Below, one piece after another: positions 17,292-64,000 of a stretch of DNA of 64,000 bases. The position numbers were made by a program, and so were the translations under genes. This DNA comes from Amoebophrya sp. A120. Taxonomy: Eukaryota > Protista > Dinoflagellata. The DNA lies in assembly GCA_905178155.1 (NCBI GenBank), contig CAJINV010000001.1, forward strand, positions 14,504,158 to 14,568,157. The letters are read 5' to 3'. The notes beneath the pieces were generated by a model. The model had not been told where the DNA came from. It searched no databases and worked only from the letters and a program-made list of their open reading frames with translations. Positions within the stretch are counted from its first letter, which is position 1, and each line of letters begins with the position of its first letter.

Positions 17292-20200
17292 TCACACAAA
17301 TTCCATTTCCCACCAGAACTCTTCAGGTGTCCTAGGCTCACTTTGAAGTCCCATGTAATGCGACTCTTCATCGCGCTCAAAGCCGGGATTTTTCGGTGCC
17401 AGATGAAGATTCCCCTGGGATTCCCGCCCAGCTTCAGAGCCTACCAGGAAAAAGCCTAGACGGCCACCACTTTCTATCTGCGAGGCCCGCGGCGCCTTGC
17501 CTTCAAGGGCGAAAAACGACGAACCCCATACGTCAAAAGCATACGGCGCATGTTGTGTTGGTTCCTGTTTCGCCTCACTTGTGGTCACGACCCCAGCACC
17601 CGTTTCAACATCATTATTGCCGGCACTATTGTTCTTTGCAGCTTCACCACCAGCTGCAAGTCCTCCACCGGTAGTTTCTGGTCGTTCCATCAGCAGTTTA
17701 CAGCGCTGCTCCGCTAGGCAGATGCATGCATCCCCGATGACCGCGGTTCGTTCCTTCTCGGGCAGGTTCGAAAAGGCAATGGGCTCGATTTTCGCCGGGA
17801 ACCCGGTTTCGGAAAAGAGCTCTTGCTCGAGCCCCACCTGGAAGTGCGCCGCTACGCCGCCCTCGTTGAAGACCGCCAGCACCTCCAGACTGCCGCTTCC
17901 GCCTTCCTCCGGGCCCAAATCCACCTCCACATCGTCCGCCGCGACGAAAACGAAGCTGTTTTTCGAGTCTTCCACCCCCTGCAGCAGGTCCGCGCGCTGG
18001 TCCTCGTGGCCAATCAACCGGAGCGACACGGCCAGATGGTCCTTCGCGGCCCGAATCCCGATGGCCTCCCACACCCCGGCCCGGTTTCGCTGCTTGTGCG
18101 TGTGAATTTTGTAGGCGTGCGGGACGTCGGCGTGCGCCTTGCTGTGGTGCGCGTCCATGTCGTTCCACCAGTGGACCGCGAGATACCCCTGGTGGTGCAC
18201 GTTTTTCAGCAAAAACGCCTTGCCGTGCTTCGCCTGCTGGACCCGGAGCCCGATCTGCTGCAAGAAGTCGAACGCCACGTCGTTGGTCGTCAACGGGTGG
18301 TACAGCGACTTCACCACGTCGAAGGCCAATTTCGGGTAGCGGCGGTCGTGCGACAGCAGGCCCTTGTTGTTCAGACCGTTCGGCCGGAAAGGGAAGGGCC
18401 GGTCCTCGCGCTCCCAATTCGGCGATTCGATGGCTGTCACCAACCCAAAAATTTTCGCGGCGACGTTTTCGTAGCCGACGTTCATCGTGTTCACAAACTG
18501 GTCCGCGAACTGCCACAGGCACAACCCCGCGAACGCCTCTTCGGTGAAGAGGATCGCGAGCACGGCCAGCCCGACAATCAGCGCCTGCCGCTCCTCGGAC
18601 CAGGTGAGCGCCTTGTCGCCGGTCAAGTATCCCACAAACCCGCCGCCGCCGGTCTCCCCGATGAGCACCGGCTTCGCGCCGCGGGCCTGGACTTGGTGCC
18701 CGGACAGCGACAAGTGGCGGAACGACGTGACGGTTTCAGCGAGATCGGTGGACAGGTCGTACCAGCCCGGGTAGTCGTTGAAAACGACGAGGTCCACGAG
18801 GTCGAACACATCCTGGCTTTCCGACGTCTTGTACCGGCTGGCAAAGCTGCGGAACCGGCTCGACTTGTTCTTCTCGGTGATCGAAAAGGACGGGTCGTAG
18901 TGCGCGCAGACCTGGAGCAGCAGCGCCATCAGGTATTTCACAGCGTTGGAACCGCGGGGGGAGGGCTGCAGAATTTTGGACACCGATGAGGATGAAGTCG
19001 TCGTCGGACTGCTCTTGGGTGGTGCTGATGCATGAGATGATAGAGATTTTCCTTTATCGCCCTTCGCAGCTGCAGATGTTGCAGCTCGACTGGGTGTCAA
19101 CATTTCATCTGTTGATGCTGTTGTAACAGAAAAAGAATCTCTCGGCAAGATGGAACGCATTAGCAGCAAGTCTCGCGCTCGTGGAAACCATGACTTGTGC
19201 GAAACGTCGCCAGGCAGCTGCTGGTGTGTTGAGCTAGTGAAAAACGCTTGTTCTCCTGCTGTTTCCTCGCCTTCGTCGTCCTCCAGTGCGTTTACCGTGA
19301 TTCGGTGCTTTTCTTCGTCACTCCACTGACTCCTTGTTGAGTGCTCGCGCCCGTCAACTTCATTCAGGAATCCCCACACCGCGACGCTCGCGTGCAATCG
19401 GTGCGCCGCAACGGTGCCGGCCATGGCTTCTAATTGCGCACGCACGAAGGCCGGATGCGCCGCGTCGCCCTGCGAGGCTTGCCAAGACATAGTTTCCTCC
19501 CAGACGAGAAGACCGAAAATGTCGCAGAGGGTCAAGAAAACCTCACCCTGGCTGTAGTGCGCCCCGCGAACAAAATTCGCATTCAAATCCTTCACCAAAA
19601 GCACCTCGCGAAGGTCGATAAGAAACTGGCGGAAAAACGCGTGATCCTTTTCCTTGGAACTGCAGCGACCTTTGTGCCCGAACAAATGCGTCGGGGTGGC
19701 GAAAGGCGAGTGCTCCGATGTTGCTGCAGCACCAGTAACATCATCCACCGCAGAGCTCTTCAACATCTGGAGCTGTGTTGCTGCTGCGACCGAAATGCAG
19801 TCGAGAGCTTTTTGGAGTACTCCCACTTTGTTCGCGAATTCCAAAAAGTGCAGCGCAGCTGTGCGGGACACGTGGAGTGTCACGTCGACAAATCCACGAC
19901 TGGCAAAAGCAAGCTTCGCTTCTTTCGACAACAAACTGATCTCTCTGGAAGACTGCACTGCTGTATTCTTGGCCAACGTTTCCTGCAAGTCGTTTTTCCA
20001 CACCGCATCTGCTTTTTGTCGAAACTGTGCTTCGACTGCTGGATCTTCTCCGTCACCATCATTTCCGCTAGGAACATCAGCAGCTTCTGCTGCGGTTCCA
20101 CCTTCACCGGTTCTTGAGCCCACCATCCCCGGCCCGCCACTTCCGCTCCCGTGTACCAAGTGACGCGTCGCAGCACTCTCCGGATCCAGCAACAGCAGCA

Positions 20201-22772
20201 CATCCCTGAAGTACAGCAGTCCCTCGTATAACGCGTTTGTGTCGTGCGAAAGAAAAAAATTGTCGTGCCGGTTGATGCCCTTCAACATAGTCGGATTCCC
20301 ATTCAACGTGATGCGCTGCGCTGCGTTCGACCCCAGAGTTCGCAAGCCGATCTTCTCGTGGAAAATGTCGAGAACGGTGCCCTTCGAGGTGACCTCAATT
20401 CTTAAATCTACAAGCTCAGGCCTCGCCGGAGACCACAGTTTGTCGTGCGGGACCTCCATCCTGGACATGCTCGCTCCGCCAGAACTACGCGGCAGTCTTC
20501 GACCGTCGACCAAGATCTCGACGGAAACCGAACTGCGGGGTATGTTGCATTTGTCACTGGATGCCAGGTCAAAGAAAACGACAAGCTCCGCGGATTTGTT
20601 CGACCCTCCTGTGATTGTACCCATACCTTCGTTTTTTCCTGCATTTTTGGTAAAGGTGTAGATTGGGTACCCACGGATTGGGTACCCACTTTGGATTGGG
20701 TGCCCACTTTGAAAAAGGTACTCATTTTGGAAACAGGTACCCACTGGGAAATAGGTACCCAGAGGGAGTCGGGTACTCAGTATGATTGTATGATTTGGGT
20801 ACCCGGTGGCGTGGAAGCGAAATTGGTTCCCGTCCCCGTCCAGAACGCGCATGACACACCCGCGAAATTCAAAAGTTTTATTTTTATGGTGTCAGTAAGC
20901 TAGTCGCAACGCAGAGCCTTGTTGTATTTAACAAGGTTGTTTGTATTCGCATCACAAATCCGCAAAAATTAAAAAAATTATTTTTATTCGCATTACAAAT
21001 CCGCGGAAATTCAAAATTTTATTTTTATTCGCATCACAAGTCCGCGAAATTTTAAAATTTCATTTTTATTCGCATCACAAATCAGCGGAGCTTGACAATG
21101 AATCTCACGCACTTTTTTCGCGTGTGGGAATACAAAAGTCGCAGTGCACAACTTTTGTATGGGCGCATCACAGGGAGGGGGGGTGTCACAGCGCGCGGCG
21201 TCCGGAGGACGGGAAACCGGTTCACATGATACCCGGGCGACGGATGGCGGTATGCTCTGCAAATGTGTTTGGTTCTGGAAGTTCGGCTTTGTCCCCTTGC
21301 TTCCGTTCATGCGTAAAGAAGTCGAGCGAAATTTCAAAATTTTATTTTTATGGGCATAAAAACGCAAGATGTGTCTGATTCCCTTCAAGTGCCAGGGCAG
21401 TGGTGTCTGTTTCGGCTGCGCGCGGCCGTCAAGTCCTGCGGGTCCTCGGATAGTTAGCAACTCAAAGTGGGTACCCTATTACCAAATCCAAAGTGGGTAC
21501 CCAATCCAGAGTGGGTACCCAGTCTAACCTCGTACCTGCATTTTTCGCTGGTCGTGAAAGCTGGTCTTGCGACTGAGATTTGTCCGCTAGCGTCACCTGC
21601 GGGAGCACATTGTCCAGCCAGAAGCAGGAACGTGGCGCGCGGAGCTCCACGGGGCGGACAAGGCCGCCTGCGAGATAGAAGTCAAATTGCTTTCGGTAGA
21701 CTGGGGGCCGCAGACGATTGTCCGAAACAACAAAGACCTCGACTTTTTTGACGCTCGCAAAAGTTTCATCCGTACTTTCCGGGAACTCCGCATGCAGGTC
21801 AACCCAAAAAGGCGCGCCAAGCTCCCGCCACGGGGTCGAAGTCCAAACGAGTTCGGATTTCCTGTCGATGGATGCAGCTACATCCGCAAACACGCCCTTC
21901 TCGCTTGCACTGTCAATCCGATCGCTTTCCCCAACGGGCCCGGCGACAAAAACTTTGCAGCGCAGCCAGCACCCGTGAAAGTACAGTTGGGAAAGCGCCG
22001 TACTCTGCGGGCCTAGCTTTATCACTGCGGCTTTGCGTTCGTCGGAAATGGTGATTTGCCGATGGTAAACAGCAATGCCTCGCTCCGTGAGCGAAGGAGC
22101 AGTTGTCACGTCCTTGTTTTTATCAAGCCACTGGCGCATTCTCGGCGTTGAAGTTTCGTACACGTGCGGAACCTCAACTGGCAAAAAAGACTTTGCGTTG
22201 AACGCGGGGAGCACTTGATTATTCCCTGGAGGTGGTTCCGATGCAGATGCAGTGTCGGTAGTTTTTGCTTTTGGTGCAACTAGTACATGTAGCCGCGGTA
22301 AAAGCTCTTGGTGAAGAAACAGCGTATCTTCCGCTGGATCATGCAATCCCGATAAGAACTGGTCCGCGGGACCTTCCACGGCCAGAGTCTGGCGGTTTGC
22401 ATTTTTTGCCGTTGGATTTCTTGCACGTATTATTTCCCCTGTGTTTGAATCCATGTCGCTCCAGTAATAGGAAGATTTCGCACTACCTACTTCCTGTATA
22501 GAATCTACTCCTTCGCGCTGCTGCGAGTCCGGATTTCCAGCACCCGCACTGTTCCCGAGAAACACGTACCCCCAATCATGGAGAAACTCTCGTTTGCTAC
22601 CACCAGTAACACCCTGCGACTGTGACCCGTCGGTCGATGCACTCGTGGCCCATGACGCTCCTGCACTCCAAATCAACAAGAGCCACGTAGTCGCGATTGC
22701 AAAAGGCCCGGATTCCAGAGTTCGTCGCATTTTTCCAACTGGAGGCGACGCAGACATTCCGGACCGAATCAC
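17292..22772 (-). CDS. Glycoside hydrolase family 2 (beta-glucuronidase/beta-galactosidase-like), probable signal peptide; two exons, about 22772..21536 and 20638..17292
   Basis: Motifs LNGNPTMLKGINRHD, NANFVRGAHY, LCDIFGLLVWEE, WGFLNE (acid/base), NDYPGWY, KPVLIGETGG (nucleophile), WQFAD and NNKGLL. Hydrophobic N-terminal stretch. The spliced junction reads ...RPAKNAG-KNEGMG. Start codon uncertain. Confidence 0.92.
20639..21535 (-). other. 897-nt GT-AG intron coextensive with a transposon plus one TSD copy
   Basis: Donor AAATGCAG|GTACGAG and acceptor TTTACCAAAAATGCAG|GAAAAA. Removal joins the two GH2 ORF segments in frame. Confidence 0.85.
20649..21536. mobile_element. Non-autonomous TIR element (Mutator/foldback-like) with 9-bp TSD, acting as an introner
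   Basis: TSD TGCATTTTT at 20640-20648 and 21537-21545. Ends are GGTAAAGGTGTAGATTGGGTACCCAC and, reverse-complemented, GGTACGAGGTTAGACTGGGTACCCAC. TIRs are built from tandem 18-bp GGATTGGGTACCCACTTT units. Internal 41-bp tandem repeat x4 at about 20941-21085. Confidence 0.9.
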
Positions 22773-26225: not shown

Positions 26226-26923
26226 GATGAAGATATACGCTCGGAATTAAGTATGATGCGGGAAACCAACAGACTAGGGCGGTAGGTTCCTCTCGTCACT
26301 AGTTTTCCTCAACATGCTTGAGATGGGTCGAAGCCAAGACCTGGTCTTGGCTCTCGCGATGAATACGCAACACTCACAACATCAATACGCAAGAAACAAG
26401 AGCGAGGCTGGTGGAACGCTTCCTGTAGCAGATGCAAGCGTAGCCATACAACCACAAACCAACACCAGCGCGGTAGAGCGGCACACAGGGCCTTCTTGTT
26501 CTTTAACGCATACTCTTTTGCTAGAAAGGTGCCAATTGCCTCTCAGCAGATTTTCAATTCGGAAACGGAAACTATTACAGCCCTCGTCTACTTTGTTCTG
26601 GTAGTGGTAGATGCAAAATGGTTTCTCCTTCTGTCGCGACGAAAGAAACCTGTAGAGCCTAGGACCACGAAGGCGGTCGTCATCTTGATCTGTATCATAA
26701 ACGTAGAGAATAGATGCCGTAAAGGTAAACTAGATACGTATGTTACTTATTCGCAACATCTACATCAGTGGAAACTTGTTTAATATTGTCTTTGCTAAAA
26801 GTAAAACATCAATTCCGGATGCTGATCATGTTACAATACTTTTGTTTGATGCAGTTTTAAATCAAAGTATTCAGCTTCAATCACCCAATCAAGTTCTCAC
26901 TACAAGTGGCGTTGGCTCCAGGT

Positions 26924-29900
26924 TCAGAACGGCTCGACCGGATACCCAGTGTTCAGCGGACTGCAGGTGTTCACGCGTCCCCACAGCAGCGCCTCCTTGA
27001 GCGCGACACAGCTCTGCCCGTCCTCGAGAAGGAACGAGGGGCCCCGGATTACTTCGTTGCTGAGCACGCTGACCGGCGCCTCCCTCTCCGAAGGTAGCAA
27101 AGACCCAGCCAACATCATGGATGGACCGCCGAGACCTGTTGTCAAGAATCAATGATGGGACGAGTCTTCTTCTCTAAGTCATTCTATCCGCTCCGTCCGA
27201 TTCAAGAGAGAACTCAAACAGCAGGTAACACATGAACACGCAAGATATGCATGGATTCCGCGCGGTCGCGGTGCTCGAGGTGGAGACGTTCTAGAACAAC
27301 AACTTTTGGGTGCTGAATCACCACAAGGATTGCCAGACGAACCACAGTGGCAGCCAAGCAACGTACAACTACTTACCATTCCAAACTTTGTCCTCGATCA
27401 TGTCTAGGAGCCAGTGCGCGTTTGCCTTGTTGCCCAAGGCTGGCGAGACCGCCGTCGGATTGTTTGCAGCCGCGCTGCTGACCCATGCGAGGTGGTCCTG
27501 CACCAGTTTCATCAGGCTGGTGGGTATTTCCGCCCCCTGAACAATGCCGAGCTTCTCCATGGTTTTGACATCCCGCGGAAAGCACTTTGCGTGCATGACG
27601 GCGTCCAAAGCAAACAGCTCCGCCGCGGAAACCGGAAACGCCAGCTGCCGGTGCACGACGATGTTTTGGATCGTCTGCGCAAACGCGTGTAGCACCTCCA
27701 CGTAACCACTGGTGAGCGCCACCACAAAGCCCGAATACGCGGCACACGCCAGAAGGGACACGACCACCTGCACGGAGAGCTGGGTGAGATTGCAGCACTC
27801 GAGAACGGCAAGCAGGGAGCGGACTTTTGCGAGGTCGCCGGTCTCACGTGACGCAATTTCGATGATCATCGTATCGAGCGCCGTCTGCGCCGCCCACTCA
27901 AACTCACCGAGCTGGAGCGCCAATTTGGTAAGCTCGATCGAATCGTGTGTCGGCGAAGCTTTCATCCTGTTTGCGTTTTTGATTGGTGTGCGTGACACGT
28001 CAATATTTTCGTAAAGTTGTCGTGCAAATTTTTAGCGCAGCATGATGGTCACGGTCATAACACAGCCGAAAACTAAAGCTACCGGCTGCAAAAACTAGAA
28101 AAATAGGTACGACTCGAATCGCCCCCGCAATTCTTGATTGTTTCCGTCCACGCCCAGGTTTCCGCCCGCGCGGGGGCAGCGAACCCCCTTTGCCAGGAGC
28201 TCGGCGCGGTGGAGGCTGGAATCCGTTCCGCTCATGGTAAAGAGCTCGTGTGCGCGCTCGCGTAGCTTGTAGCGCTCACACTGCTTCGCCAGCAGCTCCA
28301 TAGCCATCCGAGCCTTCGTTGAGATTTCAGAAGAGTCGAACGAGGAAGATCGATCGCGACCCCTTGATGTCGGTGGTTCGCCGCCGCTGCCGCGCGTCGG
28401 ACTGCGCGATCCGCCACTTTCTCGCCCCGGTGAGCCCCTGTTGCTCGATGAGGACGCGGTGGGCTTCTTGAGCAAGCTGTAGCAGACGTGATACAACAGT
28501 ATCTCGTTGCCGCGTAACAACATGTCCAACCCTGCTTCCACCGCGTTCACCGAGAAAAGCAGGCAGGCGGCGGCAACCGGCTCTGCGCTTGCATAGTATT
28601 GGTCCGCGAGTTTCTGTGACACCGAATGCAAGCGCTGGGTGCGCGAGGAGCCACCGCCTGCGGAGGAAGAGCTCGCGGTTGCAGAAGTTCCGATAAGCAC
28701 ACCGCCTGGACCTCGGATAGGTGAGTTGCTTCCAGCGGCGCCCTGATGTTCATCCGGAGGAACACTATGCAGCTGAGCCATCACTCCTGCACCGCCACCG
28801 CTTCCGCCCGCGACAGCAGCCGAAGTGAAAAACGCTCCGTCGGCTTGCGTCTTTGCGGTAGTGAGTGCTTCACTAAGCATGCTTTCGCGCAAGTACCCGT
28901 CCACCAGCTCGTCGGCGTTTTCCGTCGCAAGCAGTCCGACTGCGCGCCCCTCGATCGAGAGACAGTAGCCCTTGCGCTGCAGGTAATCGCGATACATCTT
29001 TTGCCAAAACTCCGTGGACACCATAGGCGCCGCCATGATGGCCTTTTCCCACTGGTCCGCTTGTGCCATGAATTCGCAGTATTGGCGCACGTTGCCGACG
29101 CGCAGCATCATTTGCGCGGCGTTCTGCAGCCGCTCCTCCTTCTTCATGCCGCTCCCGATTTGCCCTGACTGCGACGCCAGGGAGAGTGCCTGCGTCTTCA
29201 CCTGGGCAGATAAAACGTTCTGGTGCCAGATTTGCGTAGAGGAGTCCACGGTCAGTGCCGCGTTCACACTCGGCCGCCGATTGAGGTCGGGGCGCACGTT
29301 CATAATCACGTCAACGTCCAGCCGGCCGCCCGATTTCTTCGGCCCGGCGGTGCACGAAATCGTCCGGTGGATGTCCATTTCATCAGTGCCTGCAGTTCCG
29401 GCGCCCATGCTGGAAACACCACTACTCGGTCCTCCCGCCACGCCAGCTGTTCCTAGCGTGATGCAGTGTTCCAGCAACGCCCAGATGTCGTCCAGGTTGG
29501 TCCGAAAGTGGAAGAAGTTGAAGAGCAAGCGGTACACACGGAGCACGCGCAGTGGGTGCGGCGGCAAAGTGCTGATTGCGTAGAGCAGCCGCTGGAAGCC
29601 CTCCCCGAACAGCAGAAGGTTCTCCGTGTGCGGGTACAGCACCGGCGACCGGTTCGTGGAGGTTCCGCCCACCGTGATGTGCTTCATGAAGGGCCACGTG
29701 GCCTCGATGGGGTTGGGACTCGGCGGCGTGTTGGTCGCGAAGAACTCGGGGCCACAGACCGAGGGCACCGCGTCCGCACTGCCGGCCAGCTTGCCCAGTT
29801 CCTGGGGCGCCAAGACACCCGCGAGCAGGTACGGTGCGGCGATTTCCTCCAAAGTCCAAAAGCGAATGGTGGTGTCTCGCGAGCTGGAGACGAACATGAA

Positions 29901-32900
29901 GGGCCGCATGGGGTGCGCATCCAGGCCATACACGTCCGCGTGGTGCTGCCGTGCCGTGTACAGACAGATCCCCTGCGAGACGTCCCACACCCGGATGCTC
30001 TCGTCCCAGCTCCCGGACAGCAAAATTTGGCACACCTCCGCGTGCCAGCACAGGGCGCGCACGAAGCTCCGGTGTCCGCACAGGCGGATGCACTCGCACT
30101 GCTTGTCCACGTCCCAAACGCGGATGGTGGTATCGTCGGAGCCGGAGGCAAGCAAGTTGCGGAAGAACGGGTGCCACGTCACGTTGAAGACCCTGCCGGT
30201 GTGCCCGGAAAGCGCGAACAGGGGCTGGTGGTGGTGGGGGAAGACCTTGGTGTCCCAAACGCGAACCAAACCGTCCTGGCAGGCGGTGCAGAAAATGTTG
30301 GTGCTGTGCGGGTTAAACGCCACACCGATGACCACCAGGGGGTGTCGGTACGACCGTCGTGGACACTTGTCGCTGATACTCGTGATCACCGCGAAATTGT
30401 CGCACCCGCCGGTGGCAATCAGGTTCGGGTCATCGGGACACCAGTTCAGTCGGTACGACCTACATAAGTAGTTAACAGATAATTCCGATGAAAACTGAAT
30501 AAACTGCAGTTTGGTATTATGACGGCAGCAACGTGCCCAACGCCCAACTTACCCATGGGGGATCAAAAAAAAAATTTCGGTGTGTCTTAGATATATGATA
30601 TAGATATTTCTATAAGATAGGCAGTTGAACTAGTTATATAATTTAAGTAGCTAGAAAAGGCGTTTTTTAAGGGTTTCAGGACGCTACTCCGCCGATATTC
30701 AGCTCCACGGATTCGCCTCGGTTGTCTCCACGCCGGGGCGCCGGGATACTGCACACGAAGGCGTGGCGTAGATAGGGCACGAAGCTTCGCAGGGGGCAGA
30801 GGATCGGCGGCCAGCTTCCTGTGGCGAGGCAGCGGGACGACATCATTGCGACGGCCGTGTCGCACCTTGCCGCCCTTTTCTGTGTTTTGTTTGTGCCTTG
30901 CTGCCGCTTTCCGCCGAGCTTGGGAGCCATTTTGTGAGGCTATCCAAAGCGCCCCGGCTTCGTTGTGTTCCTACCTGGGCAGATTGACCTCACACAGGAC
31001 AACACGAGAGTCCGGGATCCCCGTCCGCGATGCCCCTCCGAGATGCCCCCTTTTTGGCAAGGGACAAAACGACCACAGCGTCGGGGCTAGGGGTAAAAGT
31101 ATGCCCTGCGGGAGGCCCTGTGTGGACCCCCTCCCGCGGACCCCCCCTCGCGCCCCCGCCTCTCGCCTGCGGCCCTGCAGGCCGCGGCCTGCGGACCATG
31201 TTGCACTTGGCTTGCGGGTGCTTTTTGGCGAACCCCCCCTGGCAGCAGATGGCACGCTGCTCAGCCTTTTCTCATAAGCAGGGCGCGCGGCTTTGCGTGT
31301 CTACCGTGCCGGCTTGCCGTCAGCCATCCCCTGGATGCGGCTAGCTGCGCCAAACCTTCCACAGGCCACGCACAATGGAAAGCGCGGGCAGTAGACAGAC
31401 GCTACGCCATGGGGCTCTTCCTCGGTTTTTTGCTAGGGTTCTGCGGCGAATCCGTGGAGCTGGATATCGGCGATGTAGCGTCCCGGAAGTTGTAAAAAAC
31501 GCCTTATATAGATAAGCTATTAACCTAGCTAAAAACAAATCACTTTTACTAGCTAGTCAATGTACCACTACCTTATTTACACCGAAAAAAAAAAACCGCA
31601 ACCCTTTGGGTAACTTGCCTGTTGGGCACGTTACTGCCGTCATAGGTATAGTACATTTTTGGTCTTCACTACACTACCTAGACGACGATCCTAGACGCAG
31701 CAAATGAAATGGCAGTACTAGGATCAGTTTGTCGACTTCAAATCTTCCATTCGGCATGCCCACCAACATGTTCATCACACGAAAAAACGAAAATCTCTTT
31801 ACGCGAGGTTCCCGTCGTGGGCTTTGTATTTGAGAATGAGCGCGCCGGTCTCTGCCTTCCACACGAACAAGTTCCCATACCCGGACACCGCAGCGATCAT
31901 GCTGCCGTCGCGACTGAAGGCAACCGCGTACAAAATTCCGTCCCCGGCGTACATTTCGCGGAAGCTCTCCCGCTTGGCCACGTTCCACAGCCGCACGTAC
32001 CCGTCGTAACTGACGGTCGCGAACACGTTGCAATTTGCGGGGCAAAAGCACAAGTCAAAAATCGTCTCTGAGTGCGCCGCGCTCGTGGTGAACTGCGGCC
32101 GGAGAGTGGTGATCTTGGTCGCACCGACCCCCCCGGTCCCCGTGTTGGAGGTGACGTCCAGCAGCGTAACCGCGCCATTCGTGTGCGCCACCAGAAGTCG
32201 CTCCGGGTTGTTGGTTGCAAACCGCGTCACCGTGAAGATAGGGCCCTGACTGCCGGCCTTCAGTTTTTCCAGCGGCTTCGGTTGCGAGGCGTTCCACAGC
32301 TGCAGGGTCGCAGTTTTGGCATGGCACGTGAGGAAGTTACCCGGCTGTGATGGCAACCAGAGAATCTTCTCCACCGGATTGAAGTTGCCGCTGGAAGAAC
32401 TACCTCCCGGCGCGGAACCATTGCCACCGTTGCCGCCACTACCCGCTCCGGAAATGGCGCCGCCGCCCCCGAGGCGCTCGAACGCGAACAGTATCGCGCC
32501 ATCGGCGGCCGCCAGGAGAAAGAGCGACCCATCGCTGAAGGCCGTGATCAAATAATCCTCGCAGAGCGGATCCTTCGCCATGCAGTCGCAGCGCGGGCCC
32601 TGCTTGGACTGTTCGGGGTGCGTGAACAGAACCTTTTTCGTTCCCATCACGACGTTGCCGCCACTCTTCGCAGGCGGTTGCTGTGGACAGGTCACGCGGC
32701 AGAGCTGGCCGTCGTGCGTGCCCACGAGAAGCTCGTCCGGCCCCTGCCACTCGAAGCAGCTCCACGCGGCGTCGGAGAACTTGACAACGCGATTGGTATC
32801 GGAGGCCCACCGGTAGAGCGACCCGTCGGAGTATCCCATGCACAGCACCTCGGCCTGCGGGTTCCGCTGCAGTCCTTTGTAGCGCCCGTTCCACCGGATA

Positions 32901-33486
32901 CGATCGCACAGCGCCACGCCGACCAAAGAACCTTCTGCTGCGGGGTGAGCCACCATCTCCTCGCGTTCCTCGGCGACATTCCAAATCACCACCTGCAAGG
33001 AAAACGTATTCGTCTTTTTTCAACACATTGACATTGCACGACGCGTCTTCGACTAGTACATCGCAATGTCCATACTACCAGCTAGCGCTCGCTGCATAGA
33101 AAGATCTGCAACGAAACTCAAACTTCATTCATACTGCGAAAAATGTGGCGCGGGCGCCCACTTCCAAGTAATCTCCAGTATTAGCAGCTAACAGAGCAGG
33201 TCTAGTACAAGAACAATATATCAACTTGTCCTTGTACCTTCCCATCTGACCCGGCGGTGACGATCGCGTTGTAGTTGTGGGACGCCCATTCCAGGCAACG
33301 GATGGATTTCGTGTGGCCCGTCAGGATCTTCCATAGTCTGGGCTTGTCGGTGCTGTCTTTTCTGTAGAGGTAAACGGCAAGCGTTGATGCGTAAGCGAAG
33401 TAAAGCGTTCCCCCGTCGACCGCAGAGCCTATCACTTCCTTGTGCCAACACTGCACCCCCGCGGGCAAGATGTTGATTTGCCGCAT
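26924..33486 (-). CDS. WDR17: WD repeat-containing protein 17 homologue; five exons: 33486..33238, 32992..31803, 30459..28111, 27966..27377, 27135..26924
   Basis: N-terminus RQINILPAGVQCWHKEV...FAYASTLAVYLY and C-terminus GSLLPS...IRGPSFLLEDGQSCVALKEALLWGRVNTCSPLNTGYPVEPF match WDR17 as recalled. Multiple WD40 repeats (GHTGRVFNVTWHP...LASGSDDTTIRVWD). All four introns are GT-AG and phase-compatible. Confidence 0.92.
30518..31644. mobile_element. Non-autonomous TIR element (1127 bp) with about 200-bp imperfect TIRs and 5-bp TSD, inside WDR17 intron 2
   Basis: TSD GGTAT at 30513-30517 and 31645-31649. Termini TATGACGGCAG(C/T)AACGTGCCCAAC. The inverted match continues through AAGGCGTTTTTTA and GGACGCTAC...CAGCTCCACGGATTCGCC (about 30657-30717 versus 31445-31505). 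Confidence 0.9.
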
Positions 33487-41322: not shown

Positions 41323-42003
41323 AATTTTTGTCTTCTCCTGTAAGAAGAGAATGCGGTCACGCTGACCGACTGTAGCTCCAGTCGCGGACTATGCGTAGCC
41401 GGAAAGCTACCACCTCCGGCACTACAGCTTGGATAATCTGCTGATCGACAATTGTGGTAAGAACGCGACTTTTCTTTTTGCGGCAGGAAAACACGTCGAG
41501 GTCGTAGCGTCTCGCCTATGGGTGAAGTGGTCGTGGTCCAACATAGGTTTCATCCTCGAAGCCCCACTTCCATCGCGCGTGTATGTGTAACTTCGTCTCC
41601 TTCAAAAAGTTTGAGATCGCTTTCTTGCGGACACAGCTGTTGACGTTCTGCCAGCTTCGACGAGTCCTCATTCATCCGGTCGATTGAAAAAGCACAAGGA
41701 CAATTTTACTATGTTTCGAAGGTGGTTATATTTTTGTACGAGCGTGGGACGCCGTCCTAACCGTCAGAGGTTTTCTAAATTTTTGACTGCCTCCAAATCG
41801 GGCACGACCACGAACGACCTACAGCTTTTATTTATCATCAGCAACACGCGGCGCGACCACCCAATTCAGTGACACGACGAGGTAGACAGGCGGCCTGACT
41901 GACTCTCTTGCGTCCGCGCTTGAGATATTGATATGGTCTTCAGAAGCAGTGTCTGCGACTTTTGCAGCCCAGGCCCAGGCGGGGCCGGATAAAATTGTAC
42001 TTA

Positions 42004-42593
42004 GAATAAGGTAACAAAGAACTTAGACGTGACCGGGGGGGTCACGTCCGTCCGTCCGGCCGGACGGACGGCACGTGACCGGGGGCAGTGCGGCCTGGGG
42101 GCGAGTTCGGCGCTGAATGCAGCAACAGCTGCGGCTCTCGGTCAAGCAGCGCTGGCCTTCCGCCTTGCGTCGCTGCAGTAAGTAGCAGCTATGGGCAGAG
42201 GTAGGCTACTCAAATAGGCGGGTCCCGGACTGGACCAAGGTGCAGAGCCGCCGGAGCAAGACAACCGCCGGCCTCGGCGACCGGGGCATTGGGCGGAAGA
42301 GTCGTGCCCTTTTTTCGTGAAGGCCGAACTCATGACCTTTTTTTTTTAGTTGGGCGCCCGATCTAGCGCTGACGGCCCCCGGCTGCGTGACCGGGGGCGG
42401 AGCGTGGCCAAAAAGAGGCGTTGCTTCAGTGACGTGCCGAGCTCATGACCTTTTTTTTTTTTTTTAGTTGCCCGGGCGCGCGCGTCGCAGAGGCCACCAC
42501 GTTCGAGCGCCACGACCGACCCCCGGTCACGTGCCGTCCGTCCGGACGGACGTGACCCCCCCGGTCACGTCCACGCTCGTTGTTACCTTATTC
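42004..42593. mobile_element. MITE (590 bp) with TTA TSD, PIF/Harbinger (Tourist)-like
   Basis: TTA|GAATAAGGTAACAA ... TTGTTACCTTATTC|TTA. Subterminal inverted blocks GACGTGACCGGGGGGGTCACGTCCGTCCG. Internal direct repeat CTCATGACC(T)nAGTTG. Confidence 0.88.
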
Positions 42594-44231
42594 TTAACTG
42601 CCAGTTGTAGAATATGAAAGTGTGTCCCCCCCGCTCCTCTTCTGTTATATCATTTACATTTAGATTTAGAAGTAATAATAGTTCGATTTTTCTTCAGATA
42701 TTTGTATTTCTCATTTAGATATCATCTGCTCTGTAGCTCTCCGTTCCCTCCTTCTAGCTCATGCTCCACGCCGTCAAAAAAAGGCACATGCTTCCGCTTG
42801 ATGATGGTTCTTGTCTACTCCTGACAAAAATTAATTGGCTTGAGTAGCAGGCTAACAGTGAGTGACGGTAGCCTAGCGAAATACTCTGAGAATATTAAGT
42901 AGCACGATCGATACCTAGATCAATGTCAACTCATGGTTGAATCAATGGCTCTGCCGCAGAAGAACAACAGTTCAAGTTCTACCGGAGTCGGTGTAGTTGC
43001 AGTCCTCGTCCCAAGCGGTTGATACTGATGCTCGAGAAGTGGCACTAGTTTGATTTGCAAATATAATTCACAATATTGATGAGCTCAAGTTGATCGTGAA
43101 ACTGTCTCTAGGAGGGTAGCGCACTTCTGCGGCGAGCCGCAGTTAAATTCATTTTGATGGTGCGACGGATCTCATCACTCTTACTTTTCCGAAGACAACA
43201 AGCACTGACCAGCAAACCTCTAGGTTGAAGTCGTCTTTTTTCTTCCATTTTTTTCTTCTTTGAAATCATACATAACATGAAGCTCTTGTTCGCAACAGAG
43301 GCCGACGAAAGTAAGCCGCACACCAGTGTAGATGCAATTGGTAGCTCTAAGTAAAGAAGCTCAGAAAGAAACAAAAGTGAGAGAGACACCCAAATCATTC
43401 ATTGACGCAAAACCGGTTCATTTATGAGACCAAAATTGAAATTCGTAAATTGATCGCAAAACAATTACAATGCTAGAAGTAGCTATAGCTAGTCGAGTGA
43501 AAGCGAGCGAGAGTAGAGCTCCGGAAATTATAGAACAAGAAATCATCAAAGAAAATCAAGTTGAGACTTGAAGTCTGTGAGTCCATCCGTCTCATTGCCT
43601 GAGCTCGCTAAGTAGCGGCGAGGTTTCAACATCTTCGGCTGCGTTTCCGGTCCTCAGGGCGATCGCTTTGAGAACCGCAATTACAGCTCCAATCGTCATC
43701 AGCCCTAAAGTCGTTACTTCTGCCACGAGTAGCGCGCTCACGCAAGTGAAGAGGTTCATCCCAAAAGCAGCGGCCCAAGTCGTGACGCAGAACACGCAGA
43801 GGCAGCTTACGCCAGAAATGCTGGGTGTACCTGTGAGGTTGCAGAGGGCCGAGGATGCGCACTTTCATCATCAAGGAACTACATGCAGGAGTAGGAAAGA
43901 AAGGCGTGTAAAAAGAAACTGCAGACAAGGCAGCTGTTTCTACTTACTCGTCATGCTCAATCATACTCATAAAATTACCGAGCAACAAGAGCAAAACATA
44001 CAGCACCAAGTACCTGCTTGGCGAAAGGTTCGGCTAGCCCAATCGTCCAGTTCGTGGGCGAAGCAAACCTGTAGATGATACATTTACATATGATAAGCAC
44101 AGATTGTTCTTGGAACTCGGTCTAAATGGAAGCAATTATATGCATCACGACCACCTCCACCACGATAAAGACAAATCTCTACAATGACTAGATAAAAGTA
44201 AGAAAACCCATTATTTAATAGTATCCCGCAA

Positions 44232-44425
44232 TAGAAACAAAGAATAGAAACGAAAAACAAAAACAAAGAATGGAAACGAAAAACGAAAACAAAGAATGGA
44301 AACGAAAAACGAAAACAAAGAATAGGAACGAAAAACGAAAACAAAGAATAGAAACGAAAAACGAAAACAAACAATGAAAACAAAAAACGAAAACAAAGAA
44401 TAGAAACGAAAAACAACAACAACGA
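44232..44425. repeat. A-rich minisatellite, about 26-bp unit (GAAACGAAAAACGAAAACAAAGAATA/G)
   Basis: About seven tandem copies visible. Confidence 0.9.
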
Positions 44426-44449
44426 AATGCAGACAAAGTGCCCAAGCTT

Positions 44450-44829
44450 CTAAGCGGCGAAGCCTTGAAAGGATGAGGCCTCGAAACGCCGAAGCAGCGA
44501 AGCCTCGAATCAGCGAAGCCTCGACGCAGCGAAGCCTCGACGCAGCGAAGCCTCGACGTAGCGAAGCCTCGAAGCAGCGAAGCTTCGAAGCCTCGAAGCA
44601 GCGCAGCCCAGAAGCAGCGAAGCCTCGAAGCAGCGAAGCAGCGAAGCCTCGAAGCAGCGAAGCCTCGAAGCAGCGAAGCCTCGGAGCAGCGAAGCCTCGG
44701 AGCAGCGAAGCCTCGGAGCAGCGAAGCCTCGGAGCAGCGAAGCCTCGGAGCAGCGAAGCCTCGGAGCAGCGAAGCGGCGAAGCCTCGAAGCAGCGAAGCC
44801 TCGAAGCCGCGAACCAGCGAAGCCTCGAA
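44450..44829. repeat. Minisatellite of GAAGCAGCGAAGCCTC (8/16-bp units)
   Basis: Tandem GAAGCAGC and GAAGCCTC units. Confidence 0.92.
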
Positions 44830-46356
44830 TTTGTCGTTGCGCCGGACCGGAGCGACAAATCCAGGAGTCCCCGGACCCGCCAATTTGTCGCTGCGCCGGA
44901 CCGGAGCGACAAAATCAGGGGTCTCCGGACCCGCCATTTTGTCGTTCCGCCGGACCGGAGCGACAAATCCAGGGGTCCCCGGACCCGCCAATTTGTCGTT
45001 GCGCCGGACCGGAGCGACAAATCCAGGAGTCCCCGGACCCGCCAATTTGTCGCTGCGCCGGACTGGAACGACAAATCCAGGAGTCCCTGGACCCGCCGAT
45101 TTGTCGTTGCGCCGGACCGGAGCGACAAACCCAGGAGTCCCCGGACCCGTCATTTTGTCGTTGCGCCGGACCGGAGCGACAAAATCAGGGGTCCTCGGCC
45201 CCGCCATTTTGTCGCTGCGCCGGACCGGAGCGACAAAATCAGGGGTCCCCAGACACGCCATTTTGTCGTTGCGCCGGGCCGGAGCGACAAAATCAGGGGT
45301 CCCCGGACCCGCCATTTTGTCGTTGCGCCGGACCGGAGCGACAAATCCAGGAGTCCCCGGACCCGCCAATTTGTCGCTGCGCCGGACTGGAACGACAAAT
45401 CCAGGAGTCCCTGGACCCGCCGATTTGTCGTTGCGCCGGACCGGAGCGACAAACCCAGGAGTCCCCGGACCCGTCATTTTGTCGTTGCGCCGGACCGGAG
45501 CGACAAAATCAGGGGTCCTCGGCCCCGCCATTTTGTCGCTGCGCCGGACCGGAGCGACAAAATCAAGGGTCCCCAGACACGCCATTTTGTCGTTGCGCCG
45601 GGCCGGAGCGACAAAATCAGGGGTCCCCGGACCCGCCATTTTGTCGTTGCGCCGGACCGGAGCGACAAATCCAGGAGTCCCCGTGCCCCCCAATTTGTCG
45701 TTGCGCCGGACCGGAGCGACAAATCCAGGAGTCCCCGGGCCCGCCAATTTGTCGTTGCGCCGGACCGGAGCGGCAAATCCGGGAGTCCCCGGACCCGCCA
45801 ATTTGTCGCTGCGCCGGACCGGAGCGACAAAATCAGGGGTCTCCGGACCCGCCATTTTGTCGTTCCGCCGGACCGGAGCGACAAATCCAGGGGTCCCTGG
45901 ACCCGCCAATTTGTCGTTGCGCCGGACCGGAGCGACAAATCCAGGAGTCCCTGGACCCGCCGATTTGTCGTTGCGCCGGACCGGAGCGACAAACCCAGGA
46001 GTCCCCGGACCCGTCATTTTGTCGGTGCGCCGGACCGGAGTGACAAAATCAGGGGTCCTCGCACCCGCCATTTTGTCGCTGCGCCGGACCGGAGCGACAA
46101 AATCACGGGTCCCCAGACCCGCCATTTTATTATTGCGCCGGGCCGGAGCGACAAATTCAAATCCAGGAGTCCTCGGACCCGCCAATTTGTCGTTGCGCCG
46201 GACCGGACCGACAAACTCAAGGGTCCCCGGACCCGCGAGTTTGTCGTTGCGCCGGACCGGAGCGACAAAGTCAGGGATCCCCGGACCCGCGAGTTTGTCA
46301 TTGCGCCGGACCGGAGCGACACACTCGGACGTCCCCGGACCCGCGAGTTTGTCGTT
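44830..46356. repeat. 54-bp tandem repeat, about 28 copies, with internal hairpin and 324-bp higher-order duplication
   Basis: Unit TTTGTCGTTGCGCCGGACCGGAGCGACAAATCCAGGAGTCCCCGGACCCGCCAA. The variant GACTGGAACG recurs at 45061 and 45385, which is 6 units apart. Confidence 0.95.
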
Positions 46357-46460
46357 GGCCGCCAAGCCGGTGCCGGACCATGGCCACCAAGCCGGTGCCG
46401 GACCATGGCCGCCAAGCCGGTGCCGGACCATGGCCACCAAGCCTGTGCTGGACCATGGCC
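46357..46460. repeat. 27-bp tandem repeat, about 4 copies
   Basis: GGCC(A/G)CCAAGCCGGTGCCGGACCAT repeated in tandem. Confidence 0.88.
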
Positions 46461-50304: not shown

Positions 50305-51428
50305 TGCAAAAAAAACAACGGAATTTTTCCCCGTGGCGGGGCTGGCGCGCGCAATTTTTTCAAGTCAGCCCTTTGCTCGCATCTTATGGTGCGCGAGTAA
50401 CTGTCTGACATTTGCAGCTGATGCTTCCGGAGAGTAAGACCTTTGCGAAAGCCTTGGGGGGCCGATCGGACGTGGCGCCCTCTTCTAAAAAAAGCAGCCG
50501 CACTTTCACCGTGACCGGGCTAAGTCGGTCTTTTTTTGAAAATATTTTATTAGAGGCACTCTGGTACAATCGCAGGCACTGGGCCAATGCTTGCCTGCCA
50601 GAGGGCCTACCGAGCCAACAGCTTTCAACTTCGTACAAGAAAAGGAGCCAGACATTTTCACCGTGACCGGGCTAGCGCGGGAAGGGACTTTTTTCGAATG
50701 GCGGCGCGCTGGTGACATCATGATTCACAGGCGCCTGGCGCTCTCCCGCGCTAAGTAATGCTCACCAAAGTAAGGCCTTAGTTACCGGAAGCGGAACTTT
50801 TTTGCACAAAAAGCAGCCGGGACCTTTCCCCGTGAGCGGGCTAACGCGGGCACTTTTTTGGAGTGGCAGCGCGCTGGTGAAATCAAAGGCGCCTTGCGCT
50901 CCCCCGAGCTGTTGCGTGCCAAAAGCCCTCAGCGGGAAGGCGTTTTGTTGCAAAAAGAGTAGCCGGGAATTTTCCCCGTCACCGGGCTAACACGGGCGCT
51001 TTTTTGGAATGGCAGCGCGCTGGTGGAATCACAGGCGCCTTGCGCTTCCCCGGGCTGTTGCGTGCCAAAAGCCCTCATCGGGAAGGCGCTTTTTTGCAAA
51101 AATAGCGGCCGGAAATTTTCCCCGTGACCGGGCTAACGCGGGCACTTTTTTGGAATGGCAGCGCGCTGGTGAAATCAAAGGCGCCTTGCGCTTCCACGAA
51201 CTGTTGCTTGCCAAAAGCCCTCATCGGAAAGGCGTTTTTTTGCAAAAAAAGTAGCCGGCAATTTTCCCCGTGACCGGGCTAACGCGGGCACTTTTTTGGA
51301 ATAGCGGCGCGCTGGTGAAATCGCAGGCGCCTTGCGCCTTCCCGAGCGAGCTGCTGCGTGCCAAAAGCCCTCATCGGGAAGGCGCTTTTTTGCAAAAAAA
51401 GCAGCCGTAAATCTAGATCTAGATCTAC
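50305..51428. repeat. Tandem repeat of about 146 bp, about 7 copies, ending in (ATCTAG)n
   Basis: Anchor CCGTGACCGGGCTAA at about 50332, 50510, 50662, 50831, 50977, 51123 and 51269. The last four anchors are exactly 146 bp apart. Confidence 0.9.
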
Positions 51429-61169: not shown

Positions 61170-64000
61170 ATGAGTCCCCCCCTAAGCGCGATGATCTATG
61201 TGTATGTCGTCGCGGGCCAGAGGGCAAAAAAATTTGAAAACCTGAAAGCCAACCAACTCAATACGGACAACCCCCAGTTTGAGTGCTACCTGTGTCCTCG
61301 AAGAGGTGCAGTTTATTTATGGGCACAGCCTATATATTAAACTAAACGAAGAGGGCTCGCTAATAACACCCCCCAGCGGGCGCGCGCGAATCTCTGTCCT
61401 GGCCGTGGCCGGCCAGAGGGAAGACCAAACTCGAAACCTGAAAGCCGACCAATCCAACACTACGGCCCACCCGCCCCAGCCCGCTTAGTGTGTATAAATA
61501 TCTGTCCTTGAGTTGCATGTCTTTGGCCGCAATCTAAAATGCTAGATCGCGACGTCGCCCTCCGGCGCGCGAGTATCTCTGTCCTGGCCGTGGTCGGCCA
61601 GAGGAAAGACAAGCCCCGAAACCTGAAGAATGAAAATCGACCTATCCAGTACGGACCACCCCCAGCCCGCTACAGAATCTCTGTCCTAGATTTTTTTTAC
61701 AGTTCCCTGGCCGCAATCTAGGAAGCTAGATCATGAAAAGGCTTCGGCAGCGTGGCCCCCCCCGCCGGAAGTATCTCTGTCCTGGCCATGCTCCTGCTCG
61801 ACCCGGGGCGGAAACGACGCAAAAACCCAACCAAGGAAGGCCCGGGTGGCTGGGTACTCAAAGAGACTGACCCGCCCGCGCATTGGTATCTCTGTCCTGG
61901 CCACGTTCGAACAGGGAAACAGAAGACGGAAAAACCCGAAGCATAACCACCTGGATAAGGAAGCTTCCCAGCGCATTGCCCGGCATCTCTCTCCTGGCCG
62001 CCTTCGACTAGGGGAGAAAAAGGCGCAAAAGCCCGAAGGCCGTTGGACCGGAAAAGGACACCCCGCAGAGCGCATTGGTATCGCTGTCCTGGCCATCTTC
62101 GGAACGGCTGGGGGAGAAAAAGGCGCAAAAACCCAAATGCCGCTTGACTCCGGAATAAGGAGTAAGGACACTCATCCCCCAGCTCAGTGGTGCCTCCGTT
62201 CTGGCCATGTTCGACCAGGGGAGAAAAGTCGAAAAGGCCTGATCATGAAAACTTTTTTTCGCTAGTCGGGCCCCCCAGCGCGCGAGTACCTCCGTCCTGG
62301 CCGTGGTCGACCAGAAGGGCAAAAAACGCCAGAGCCCGCAGCCGACCTCCAGCCCGGTACTGAGACCTCCCGCCCCGCTTGCTATCCCTCTCCTGGAGTT
62401 GCAATCCCTCACTCGCATTGTAGCAAATTCGGCCAAACGATCTCGCTAATGAGGCCCCCTAGCGCGCGAGCATCTCTGTCCTCGCCATAGTAGTCGGCCG
62501 GTGGGGGGCAAAGGATTTCCCATCCTGAAAACCGACCAAGCCAAGAATGCGGAGAATCCCGAGCCTGCTTCATAGCTCTGTCTTTGAAGCGCTTCCTTCG
62601 GGGGCTGCGCGTTTTTGATACGCTGGCGCTGTGCTTGCTCTTCTATTCGTACCTGATTTACTCTTCGATGGCTTGCGGCGTACTTATGTCGTTGGGCACG
62701 CCGCTTCCGATCGTTTCTTTCGAGTTCGGAACTCTGACGAACTTCGTGCTTCCAGATGAGCCGTCTGCTCAACAAAAGTTGGCTAACTTTCCACGCCATA
62801 CATAATTAAGCCAAATTAGTAGCGTCCTGGAAAGAAATGCCCGAAATTCGTCAGCACCACCGTCGGGCCGAAGAGATTCCCGACCAGGATCGCGGGTGGA
62901 TGCCGCAGCCGCTTTTTTTGCGGCTGGCTGCACAAAACGAAAGAAACCGAAACCATGAAGACAGTTGCTGCGAGGGAATCCCCAGCGCCTGGGTATCTCT
63001 GTCCTGAGCGTAAGCGGCTGGGCGCACAAAAAGAAAGAAGAAAACCGAAACCATGGAGACAGTTGCTGCCAAGGACACCCCCCAGCGCTTGGGTATCTCT
63101 GTCCTGGGTGGCCATGCATACACACAGAGGCTGGCTAACTTTCCACGCCATACATAATTAAACCAAATTAGTAGCGGCTTGGAAAGAAATGCCCGAAATT
63201 CGTCAGCACCACCGTCGAGCCGAAGAGATTCCCGACCAGGATCGCGGGTGGATGCCGCAGCCGCTTTTTTTGCGGCTGGCCACACAAAAAGAAAGAAGCC
63301 GAAACCATGAAGACAGTTGCTGCAAAGGACACCCCCCAACGCCTGGGCATCTCTGTCCTGAGACTAAGCGGCTGGGCGCACAAAAAGAAAGAAGAAAACC
63401 GAAAGCATGAGGACCGTTGCTGCTAGAAGCCGAAACCATGAAGACAGCGGCTGCTAAGGACACCCCCCAGCGCCTGGGTATCTCTGTCCTGAGCATAAGC
63501 GGCCGGGCACACAAAAAGAAAGAAGAAAACCGAAACCATGAAGACAGTTGCTGCTAAGGACACCCCCCAGCGCTTGGCTGGATATCTCTGTCCTGGCCAT
63601 AAGCGGCTGGCCACACAAAAAGAAAGAAACCGAAACCATGAAGACAGTTGCTGCCAAGGACACCCCCCAGCGCCTGGGTATCTTCAGGGTCGAAAGAAGC
63701 CGAAACCATGAAGACAGTTGCTGCTAAGGACACCCCCCAGCGCCTGGGTATCTCTGTCCTAAGCATAAGCGGCTGGGCACACAAAAAGAAAGAAGAAAAC
63801 CGAAACCATGAAGACAGCTGCTGCGAAGGACACCCACCAGCGCTTGGGTATCTCTGTCCTGGCCATAAGCGGCTGGCCGCACAAAAAGAAAGAAACCGAA
63901 ACCATGCAGGCAGTTGCTTTTAAGGACACCCCCCAGCGCCTGGGTATCTCTGTCCTGAGCATAAGCGGCTGGGCGCACAAAAAGAAAGAAGAAAACCGAA
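61170..64000. repeat. Satellite of about 100-bp units, degenerate on the left and homogeneous from about 62930, running off the window
   Basis: Core CCCCCAGCGCCTGGGTATCTCTGTCCTG. GAAACCATG anchors at 63432, 63532, 63632, 63702, 63802 and 63898. A 352-bp duplication starts at 62781 and 63133. Confidence 0.9.

What the first reader, a model, noticed from the sequence alone, without database searches (positions are those of the whole stretch)
20639..21545. Introner: a TIR transposon inserted in GH2 coding sequence that forms an exactly removable GT-AG intron
Seen: an 888-bp element bounded by GGTA...TACC TIRs and a 9-bp TSD (sense AAAAATGCA) interrupts an otherwise intact GH2 gene. The first G of the element ends the exon and the next GT is the donor. 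The second TSD copy plus the following host G forms TGCAG, the acceptor. Excising 897 nt (888+9) regenerates the pre-insertion sequence base for base (…PAKNAGKNEG…). Both ends begin GGTA, so either orientation would provide a donor. Known: DNA-transposon introners occur in Micromonas, Aureococcus and dinoflagellate lineages, and 9-bp TSDs are typical of Mutator. Inference: this is a large Mutator/foldback-type introner family that is tolerated at targets ending in CA followed by G. Whether it has been described could not be checked.
Basis: partly seen in the sequence, partly recalled or inferred. Interest (0 to 1): 0.88.

Follow-up and report, generated by a model that had tools for sequence, protein, structure and literature searches.

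The report
Transposon intron that skips its AG
An 888-base transposon-like element inside a glycoside hydrolase gene of what is likely a marine parasitic dinoflagellate is missing from the assembled transcripts, but the cut ends at an unusual AA six bases before a textbook AG and is predicted to add two amino acids, likely because the element's folded-back ends position the cut.

Summary
The anatomy is right, the predicted splice is wrong. An 888-bp element (20649-21536) with ~55-bp imperfect TIRs and a 9-bp TSD interrupts a GH2 gene; named relatives point to Amoebophrya. All four RNA-type contig runs laid (X3-X6, one sample code) join 21536 to 20644: an 891-nt GT-AA intron with no alternative placement. 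None shows the 897-nt GT-AG form; neither DNA-type run (X1, X2) shows any joined form; two raw RNA runs gave no reads. The donor is the TIR's GT; the 3' cut lies four bases into the second TSD copy and skips a CAG/G six bases further on, leaving six in-frame bases (two residues) in a variable loop. In the predicted fold the cut lies in an unpaired A-run next to the TIR stem. Architecture is Mutator/foldback-like, without transposase; the family looks small, not large. The kind is known: non-canonical introner elements of Amoebophrya (Farhat 2021), including Mutator-type and all-GT/never-AG families catalogued for strain A120 (Gozashti 2025, fam65, fam71, fam99). This scan noted position-set 3' sites on other DNA before. 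Its value: a natural control showing a perfect AG ignored.

The parts
20649..21536 (.). Non-autonomous TIR element, 888 bp, G/C termini, no transposase
   Evidence: boundary at 20649 also from other-copy flanks; no Pfam match in its two longest frames; no Rfam match
21537..21545 (-). First (upstream, exonic) copy of the 9-bp TSD
20640..20648 (-). Second TSD copy: 20645-20648 removed with the intron, 20640-20644 kept in the transcript
21481..21536 (-). TIR at the intron's 5' end: terminal motif plus 18-nt subterminal repeats with a GGGTACCC core; its G at 21536 stays exonic, GT at 21535-21534 is the donor
   Evidence: joint
20649..20701 (+). TIR at the intron's 3' end; subterminal 15-18-nt repeats continue to about 20805
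20645..21535 (-). Observed intron, 891 nt, GT..AA, no equivalent alternative placement
   Evidence: joint 20644/21536 in X3, X4, X5, X6; uniqueness
20639..20641 (-). Canonical-looking CAG acceptor, not used in any contig seen; its CA is predicted to pair with the first TSD copy (p 0.6-0.7)
20940..21087 (.). Internal 41-bp AT-rich tandem repeat (3.6 copies), with related units near 20848 and 21312; shared with many other genomic places
   Evidence: many partial matches in X1
21536..22757 (-). Upstream coding exon of the GH2 gene (first Met at 22757)
   Evidence: homologous to the N-terminal parts of P0116 and P0117; covered in pieces by X3
17292..20644 (-). Downstream coding exon of the GH2 gene; poly(A) end at 17253
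   Evidence: T10 loose end in X6

Best explanation
A non-autonomous, likely Mutator/foldback-type transposon inserted into a variable loop of a GH2 gene is absent from the assembled transcripts as an 891-nt GT-AA segment, likely removed by the non-canonical splicing route of Amoebophrya, in which the paired TIRs would hold the two ends together and the 3' cut is predicted to be set by position beside the stem rather than by an AG. Shown: boundaries, TSD, the 891-nt joint in four RNA-type runs, the unused CAG, the preserved frame. Inferred: insertion by a MULE transposase acting in trans; spliceosomal chemistry at the GT donor; stem-guided choice of the AA site, with the CAG possibly masked because the palindromic TGCA of the two TSD copies pairs; translation of the product with two extra residues (Asp-Ala).
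For: Joint 20644/21536, 891 nt, zero shared letters, in X3 (depth 6.41, 119 letters on the short side), X4 (5.62; 207), X5 (5.2; 28), X6 (4.6; 25); absent in X1 and X2. X4-X6 behave as poly(A) RNA: T10 end at 17253 in X6, four other joints that all read GT-AG, no depth across 30675-31768 where X2 is covered. The frame stays open, 1535 aa stop-to-stop. Predicted fold: terminal pairs 21536-20649 and 21535-20650 p 0.94; 20648-20644 unpaired p 0.97-1.00; TSD-TSD pairs p 0.61-0.71; the same at 19 C. The site lies between conserved blocks where the A25 orthologue is shorter. Farhat et al. report 60-65% non-canonical introns, GT-AA among the commonest classes in A120, no U1 snRNA found, and hairpin-forming ends. 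Gozashti et al. list A120 TIR families of 625-810 bp with near-fixed GT/AT donors and no AG or AC acceptor (fam26, 65, 71, 99). Terminal motif plus short subterminal repeats plus 8-9-bp TSD is the Muta1 architecture.
Against: One site only; no second spliced copy of this family was seen, so stem-guided choice is not separated from a ruler that counts from a sequence inside the TIR. The four RNA-type runs share one sample code, are assembled contigs of depth 5-6 (two with under 31 letters on the short side), and contigs drop rare variants, so a minor 897-nt form may exist. Their RNA nature is a tool guess backed by my controls. The DNA-type runs carry a different sample code. The fold is a prediction, and the GT donor itself lies inside the predicted stem, which must open for ordinary spliceosomal pairing. 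Farhat et al. say splice sites vary relative to the hairpin, so there is no fixed offset. No transposase links the element to MULEs.
Confidence: 0.68

Rival explanations
1. Same intron, different rule: an AG-blind spliceosome cuts a fixed distance after a branch point or protein-binding motif carried in the TIR; the hairpin is a by-product of being a transposon.
For: Ordinary CAG/GTA donor context; a CCAAT(C/T) unit recurs at -55, -37 and -22 from the cut; Fritillaria's TIR-derived non-canonical introns are said to be spliceosomal (review passages).
Against: The four ordinary introns nearby all use AG, so AG is read when there is no terminal stem; the candidate motifs lie inside the predicted stem.
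Confidence: 0.19
2. One reading: the element is removed exactly as an 897-nt GT-AG intron that restores the pre-insertion mRNA.
For: The sequence allows it and the frame is restored; contigs can hide minor forms.
Against: 0 of 4 RNA-type runs show it, 4 of 4 show 891; X3 and X4 contigs pass the joint unbroken with over 100 letters on each side.
Confidence: 0.04
3. The RNA culture carries a DNA allele from which the element has excised, leaving a six-base footprint; nothing is spliced.
For: RNA-type and DNA-type runs have different sample codes; DNA transposons can leave footprints.
Against: X1 and X2 hold the element and no joined form; X5 has contigs on the element with this copy's letters at 20702 and 21416; Muta1 excision with 9-bp TSDs was precise in 27 of 29, 28 of 30 and 26 of 30 events, which would give the 897 form; the cut falls exactly on a CAG/GT donor.
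Confidence: 0.05
4. Reverse-transcriptase template switching across the hairpin, or an assembly artefact.
For: A long stable stem is a known cause of such jumps (own knowledge).
Against: The joint has no shared letters, while an 11-nt direct repeat offers 12 equivalent placements for the 897 form that a template switch would favour; the same joint stands in four runs; it is in frame and starts at GT.
Confidence: 0.04

Closest known systems
Introner elements among the non-canonical introns of Amoebophrya A25/A120 (Farhat et al. 2021, PMC7789003)
   Same: Inverted repeats at the intron ends, direct repeat overlapping the boundary, no transposase, non-canonical site (GT-AA is listed at 2% in A120), same genus by protein hits.
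   Different: IR about 55 nt with subterminal repeats rather than 8-20 nt; DR 9 nt rather than 3-5 nt; ends start GGTA, not the TAT or TTA family motifs; 891 nt versus mean 120-240 nt; part of the duplication is kept.
A120 introner families fam65 (Mutator), fam99, fam71, fam26 (Gozashti et al. 2025, PMC12130899, Dataset S2)
   Same: fam65: TIR DNA/Mutator, 8-9-bp TSD, GG/CC termini, TIR 42-46, donors gt 2/at 2, acceptors non-canonical 4 of 4. fam99: 784 bp, TIR 56, donors gt 5 of 5, acceptors non-canonical 5 of 5, automated TSD 11. fam71: gt 4 of 4, non-canonical 4 of 4.
   Different: The table does not say whether a nearby AG is skipped.
Non-autonomous MULE / type 2 Foldback elements such as Aedes Muta1 derivatives (PMC5225508; PMC6446971)
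   Same: 8-11-bp TSD, short terminal motif followed by short subterminal tandem repeats, unrelated interior.
   Different: No transposase or sequence homology shown here; Muta1 derivatives were not reported as introns in the passages read.
Canonical DNA-transposon introners of Micromonas, Aureococcus, Symbiodinium and others (Gozashti et al. 2022, PMC9860276)
   Same: TIR plus TSD element that carries one splice site; some families add codons (Aureococcus sp., 12 bp).
   Different: Those use GT/GC-AG sites, usually co-opting AG or GT from the TSD; here the TSD offers an AG that is not used.
TIR-bounded non-canonical introns of Fritillaria and nonconventional introns of euglenids (as reviewed in PMC11282704)
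   Same: Transposon origin, terminal pairing, AG not required.
   Different: Other lineages and other end motifs; in euglenids positions +4 to +6 pair with -6 to -8, here +1 to +3 pair with -6 to -8.

Membership tests
Amoebophrya introner elements (Farhat 2021) | Transcript-supported intron with non-canonical splice dinucleotides | tested here: met
   891-nt GT-AA joint in 4 of 4 RNA-type runs that cover the site
Amoebophrya introner elements (Farhat 2021) | Inverted repeat pairing the 5' and 3' ends of the intron | tested here: met
   49 matches in 57 columns; terminal pairs p 0.94; longer than the 8-20 nt described
Amoebophrya introner elements (Farhat 2021) | Direct repeat of 3-5 nt overlapping the boundaries | tested here: not met
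   The repeat overlaps the 3' boundary but is 9 nt; the paper's figure legends cover 3-8 nt
Amoebophrya introner elements (Farhat 2021) | Repeated in the genome, with other copies as introns | tested here: inconclusive
   Other termini exist (X1 records 2-4; flanks in X3, X4), but no other copy was seen spliced
Amoebophrya introner elements (Farhat 2021) | Strain family IR motif (TAT... in A120, TTA... in A25) | tested here: not met
   Ends start GGTA
Mutator-type introner like A120 fam65 (Gozashti 2025) | 8-9-bp TSD, GG/CC termini, TIR of about 45 bp, GT/AT donor, non-canonical acceptor | tested here: met
   versus row 590
Mutator-type introner like A120 fam65 (Gozashti 2025) | Sequence identity with the family consensus (fam65, fam71 or fam99) | not testable with these tools
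   Five element motifs were not found in 12 of 14 supplementary files searched; the table rows hold no sequences
MULE superfamily | TSD of 8-11 bp | tested here: met
   9 bp at this copy; definition. TSDs of other copies could not be read
MULE superfamily | Long or foldback-type TIRs with subterminal repeats | tested here: met
   compare
MULE superfamily | DDE transposase, in the element or in an autonomous partner with the same TIR | not testable with these tools
   None in the element or among the window ORFs scanned; no genome held
Canonical, exactly removed introner (GT-AG, mRNA unchanged) | AG acceptor used | tested here: not met
   0 of 4 RNA-type runs
Canonical, exactly removed introner (GT-AG, mRNA unchanged) | Pre-insertion sequence restored | tested here: not met
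   Six bases remain, two residues added

The most novel reading that the evidence does not exclude
In Amoebophrya, hairpin-closed introns are cut by RNA geometry alone: the 3' site is taken in the first unpaired bases beyond the TIR stem and AG is ignored even when perfect, so any TIR transposon can become an intron if the leftover of its duplication is a multiple of three. This site, with a CAG/G six bases away that would restore the protein exactly, is a ready-made control for that route, and 9-bp-TSD elements would be a standing source of two-residue insertions in proteins.
Probability: 0.35. Interest if true: 0.75.

Novelty: new member of a known kind. Interest (0 to 1): 0.5.

Why it matters
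How Amoebophrya splices tens of thousands of introns without fixed end motifs, and apparently without U1, is an open question (Farhat 2021, section 16). In most of its introner elements the short duplication makes the cut ambiguous. Here the junction is unambiguous and competes with a perfect canonical acceptor, so it fixes both cut positions relative to the stem (5' cut one base inside, 3' cut four bases outside) and shows that AG is not decisive. It also shows that sequence-only prediction, however neat, misreads introns in this lineage, and that such insertions change protein sequence.

Tried and rejected
Whole-genome search for copies: no genome held. Exact 22-base TIR pattern in metagenome contigs: 0 matches. 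Related loci for the GH2 gene in metagenome contigs: 12 of 84 candidate stretches, best segments 26-46% identical, no empty-site allele. Protein searches found no full-length model across the element; the window's own entries are a 1110-aa downstream piece and a 249-aa upstream fragment, which look like mechanical calls and say nothing firm about public annotation. Pfam on 2 element frames and 9 other unexplained frames: 0 of 11 matched. Rfam on 20400-21800: 0. An 11-bp TSD with an 886-bp element was considered, because the direct repeat extends two bases, and rejected since other copies begin exactly at 20649. A strict 'element plus 3 nt' rule was considered and dropped, because the commonest A120 repeats are described as four bases and sites vary relative to the hairpin. 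The automated TE/splice coordinates in Dataset S2 were not used for geometry: for fam65 they disagree with the authors' manual TSD. The target rule (CA then G) could not be tested on other copies: only one flank of each was seen, and those copies were unspliced at that end. Sequence look-up in earlier scan notes: nothing. The window-wide inverted-repeat scan was swamped by the 54-bp array and its output was cut.

Full report
1. Observation. An exact 9-mer repeat has a background rate of 7.4e-6 per position here. The ends align over about 55 nt with 49 matches in 57 columns and carry 15-18-nt subterminal repeats with a palindromic core found nowhere else in the window (6 of 6 occurrences). The sense strand folds with z = -7.39. 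The interior holds a 41-bp tandem repeat, and its two longest frames match no Pfam family.

2. Host. The interrupted minus-strand gene encodes a GH2 protein (Pfam; nearest solved structure a beta-galacturonidase, E 3e-29). One orthologue, P0116, matches the upstream exon with residues 1-106 and the downstream exon from residue 136; the Amoebophrya sp. A25 protein P0117 also matches both sides and is shorter across the insertion point, so the site is a variable loop. The best named hits for this gene and its neighbour are A25 proteins at 36-37% identity, so the window likely comes from another Amoebophrya; I name no strain.

3. The decisive test. Eleven runs were listed and eight laid. X3 and X4, X5, X6 each give one joint at the element: 20644 to 21536, 891 nt skipped, GT at the sense 5' end and AA at the 3' end, with no shared letters. 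One search confirms that this placement is unique, whereas the 897-nt removal has 12 equivalent placements. No run shows the 897-nt form. X1 and X2, which cover introns and intergenic DNA continuously, show no joined form. X9 and X10 laid no reads and are no test. The tool only guesses that X3-X6 are RNA; my controls support it for X4-X6: a T10 end at 17253 (X6), four further joints that all read GT-AG (4 in X4, 3 in X5, 2 in X6), and no depth over 30675-31768. Limits: X3-X6 share one sample code, depths are 4.6-6.4, X5 and X6 have only 28 and 25 letters on the short side, and contigs hide rare forms.

4. Consequence. The transcript keeps the element's first G and the last five bases of the second TSD copy: six bases, in frame, adding Asp-Ala; the frame is 1535 aa stop-to-stop, 1524 from the first Met.

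5. Mechanism. In the predicted fold the TIRs close a stem down to the terminal G-C pair (p 0.94). The five As after it are unpaired (0.97-1.00), and the palindromic TGCA of the two TSD copies pairs (0.61-0.71), which would cover the CA of the CAG (37 and 19 C). The 5' cut is one base inside the stem, the 3' cut four bases outside, in the A-run. I favour a stem-positioned cut (0.68) over a ruler from a motif inside the TIR (0.19); one site cannot separate them, and the donor's burial in the stem is a difficulty. A DNA excision footprint (0.05) is unlikely: X5 holds element contigs with this copy's letters, and MULE excision between 9-bp TSDs was about 90% precise in yeast (PMC5225508, passages). 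Template switching (0.04) would use the 11-nt repeat and give 897.

6. Family. At 88% likeness X1 gives a 42-nt left-end contig at depth 92.5 against 42.6 in the flank, one contig with 2 differences and one 3154-nt contig with a diverged terminus; the right end lies in a single-depth 9214-nt contig (16 of 153 pieces shown). X3 and X4 show two other flanks at 20649. That is a handful of termini, not a large family; depth is a rough guide only, and the TSDs of other copies could not be read.

7. What is known. Farhat et al. 2021 (PMC7789003; abstract, passages, sections 11, 12, 16, supplement search and part 3; figures not visible) describe 60-65% non-canonical introns, introner elements with 8-20-nt IRs and 3-5-nt DRs, GT-AA at 2% in A120, no U1 snRNA, and an unknown mechanism. 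Gozashti et al. 2025 (PMC12130899; passages, SI legends, Dataset S2 parts 1 and 15-18, i.e. all 58 A120 rows) list fam65 as the table's only Mutator row, with 8-9-bp TSD, GG/CC termini and 4 of 4 non-canonical acceptors; 7 of 58 A120 families have no AG or AC acceptor, and four of these (fam26, 65, 71, 99) have near-fixed GT/AT donors and lengths of 625-810 bp. fam99 (TIR 56, GT 5 of 5, long TSD) could be this family; no sequences were visible to decide (12 of 14 files searched). Introners that add codons are known (PMC9860276, passages). MULE features are from PMC6446971 and PMC5225508 (passages); Fritillaria and euglenid cases from a review (PMC11282704, passages); PMC12005148 (passages) confines the odd introns to part of the genus. 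Huff 2016, Henriet 2019 and Roy 2023 were not read. Searches (listings only) showed no paper on skipping of an adjacent AG in Amoebophrya; that is weak evidence of absence. Earlier scan notes report position-set 3' sites in other genomes; I did not check them.

8. Verdict. Interest 0.5: not a new class, but an unusually clean test case for an unresolved splicing route.

Noticed in passing
window 30518-31644: A 1127-bp TIR element (ends start TATGACGG) with a 5-bp TSD lies inside a 1343-nt canonical GT-AG intron of a WD40 gene; the intron is spliced in X4 and X5, and X2 shows other copies with different flanks at both ends.
   Followed up: partly
window 42002-42596: A third fold-back element of about 595 bp with GC-rich subterminal repeats and an apparent 3-bp duplication (ACT); gene context not examined.
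   Followed up: no
window 26496-33236, minus strand: Four canonical introns (241, 144, 1343, 245 nt) confirmed by joints in RNA-type contigs; none shows end-to-end pairing like the GH2 element.
   Followed up: partly
window 20649-20984: A transcribed second copy in X3 (9 differences, own 5' flank) leaves the alignment at 20984; X4 has another flank at 20649. Family members thus differ inside and can stay in RNA.
   Followed up: partly
window 20943-21069 and 21312-21351: The AT-rich 41-bp unit matches many unrelated contigs of X1 (summed depth 1720 against 43 in the flanks), so it may be a dispersed motif shared with other elements.
   Followed up: no
window 20652: One X1 contig has an 18-letter loose end that begins with the reverse complement of the element's terminal motif, as if two termini lay back to back nine bases apart; unexplained.
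   Followed up: no
window 44235-46460: Adjacent tandem arrays of period 26, 16, 54 (28 copies) and 25, open in several frames, no Pfam match.
   Followed up: no
window 50798-51407 and 61180-64000: 146-bp tandem array (4.2 copies) and an irregular array of about 100-bp units.
   Followed up: no
window 17253: Poly(A) site of the GH2 transcript, about 40 nt after the stop codon, seen in X6.
   Followed up: yes
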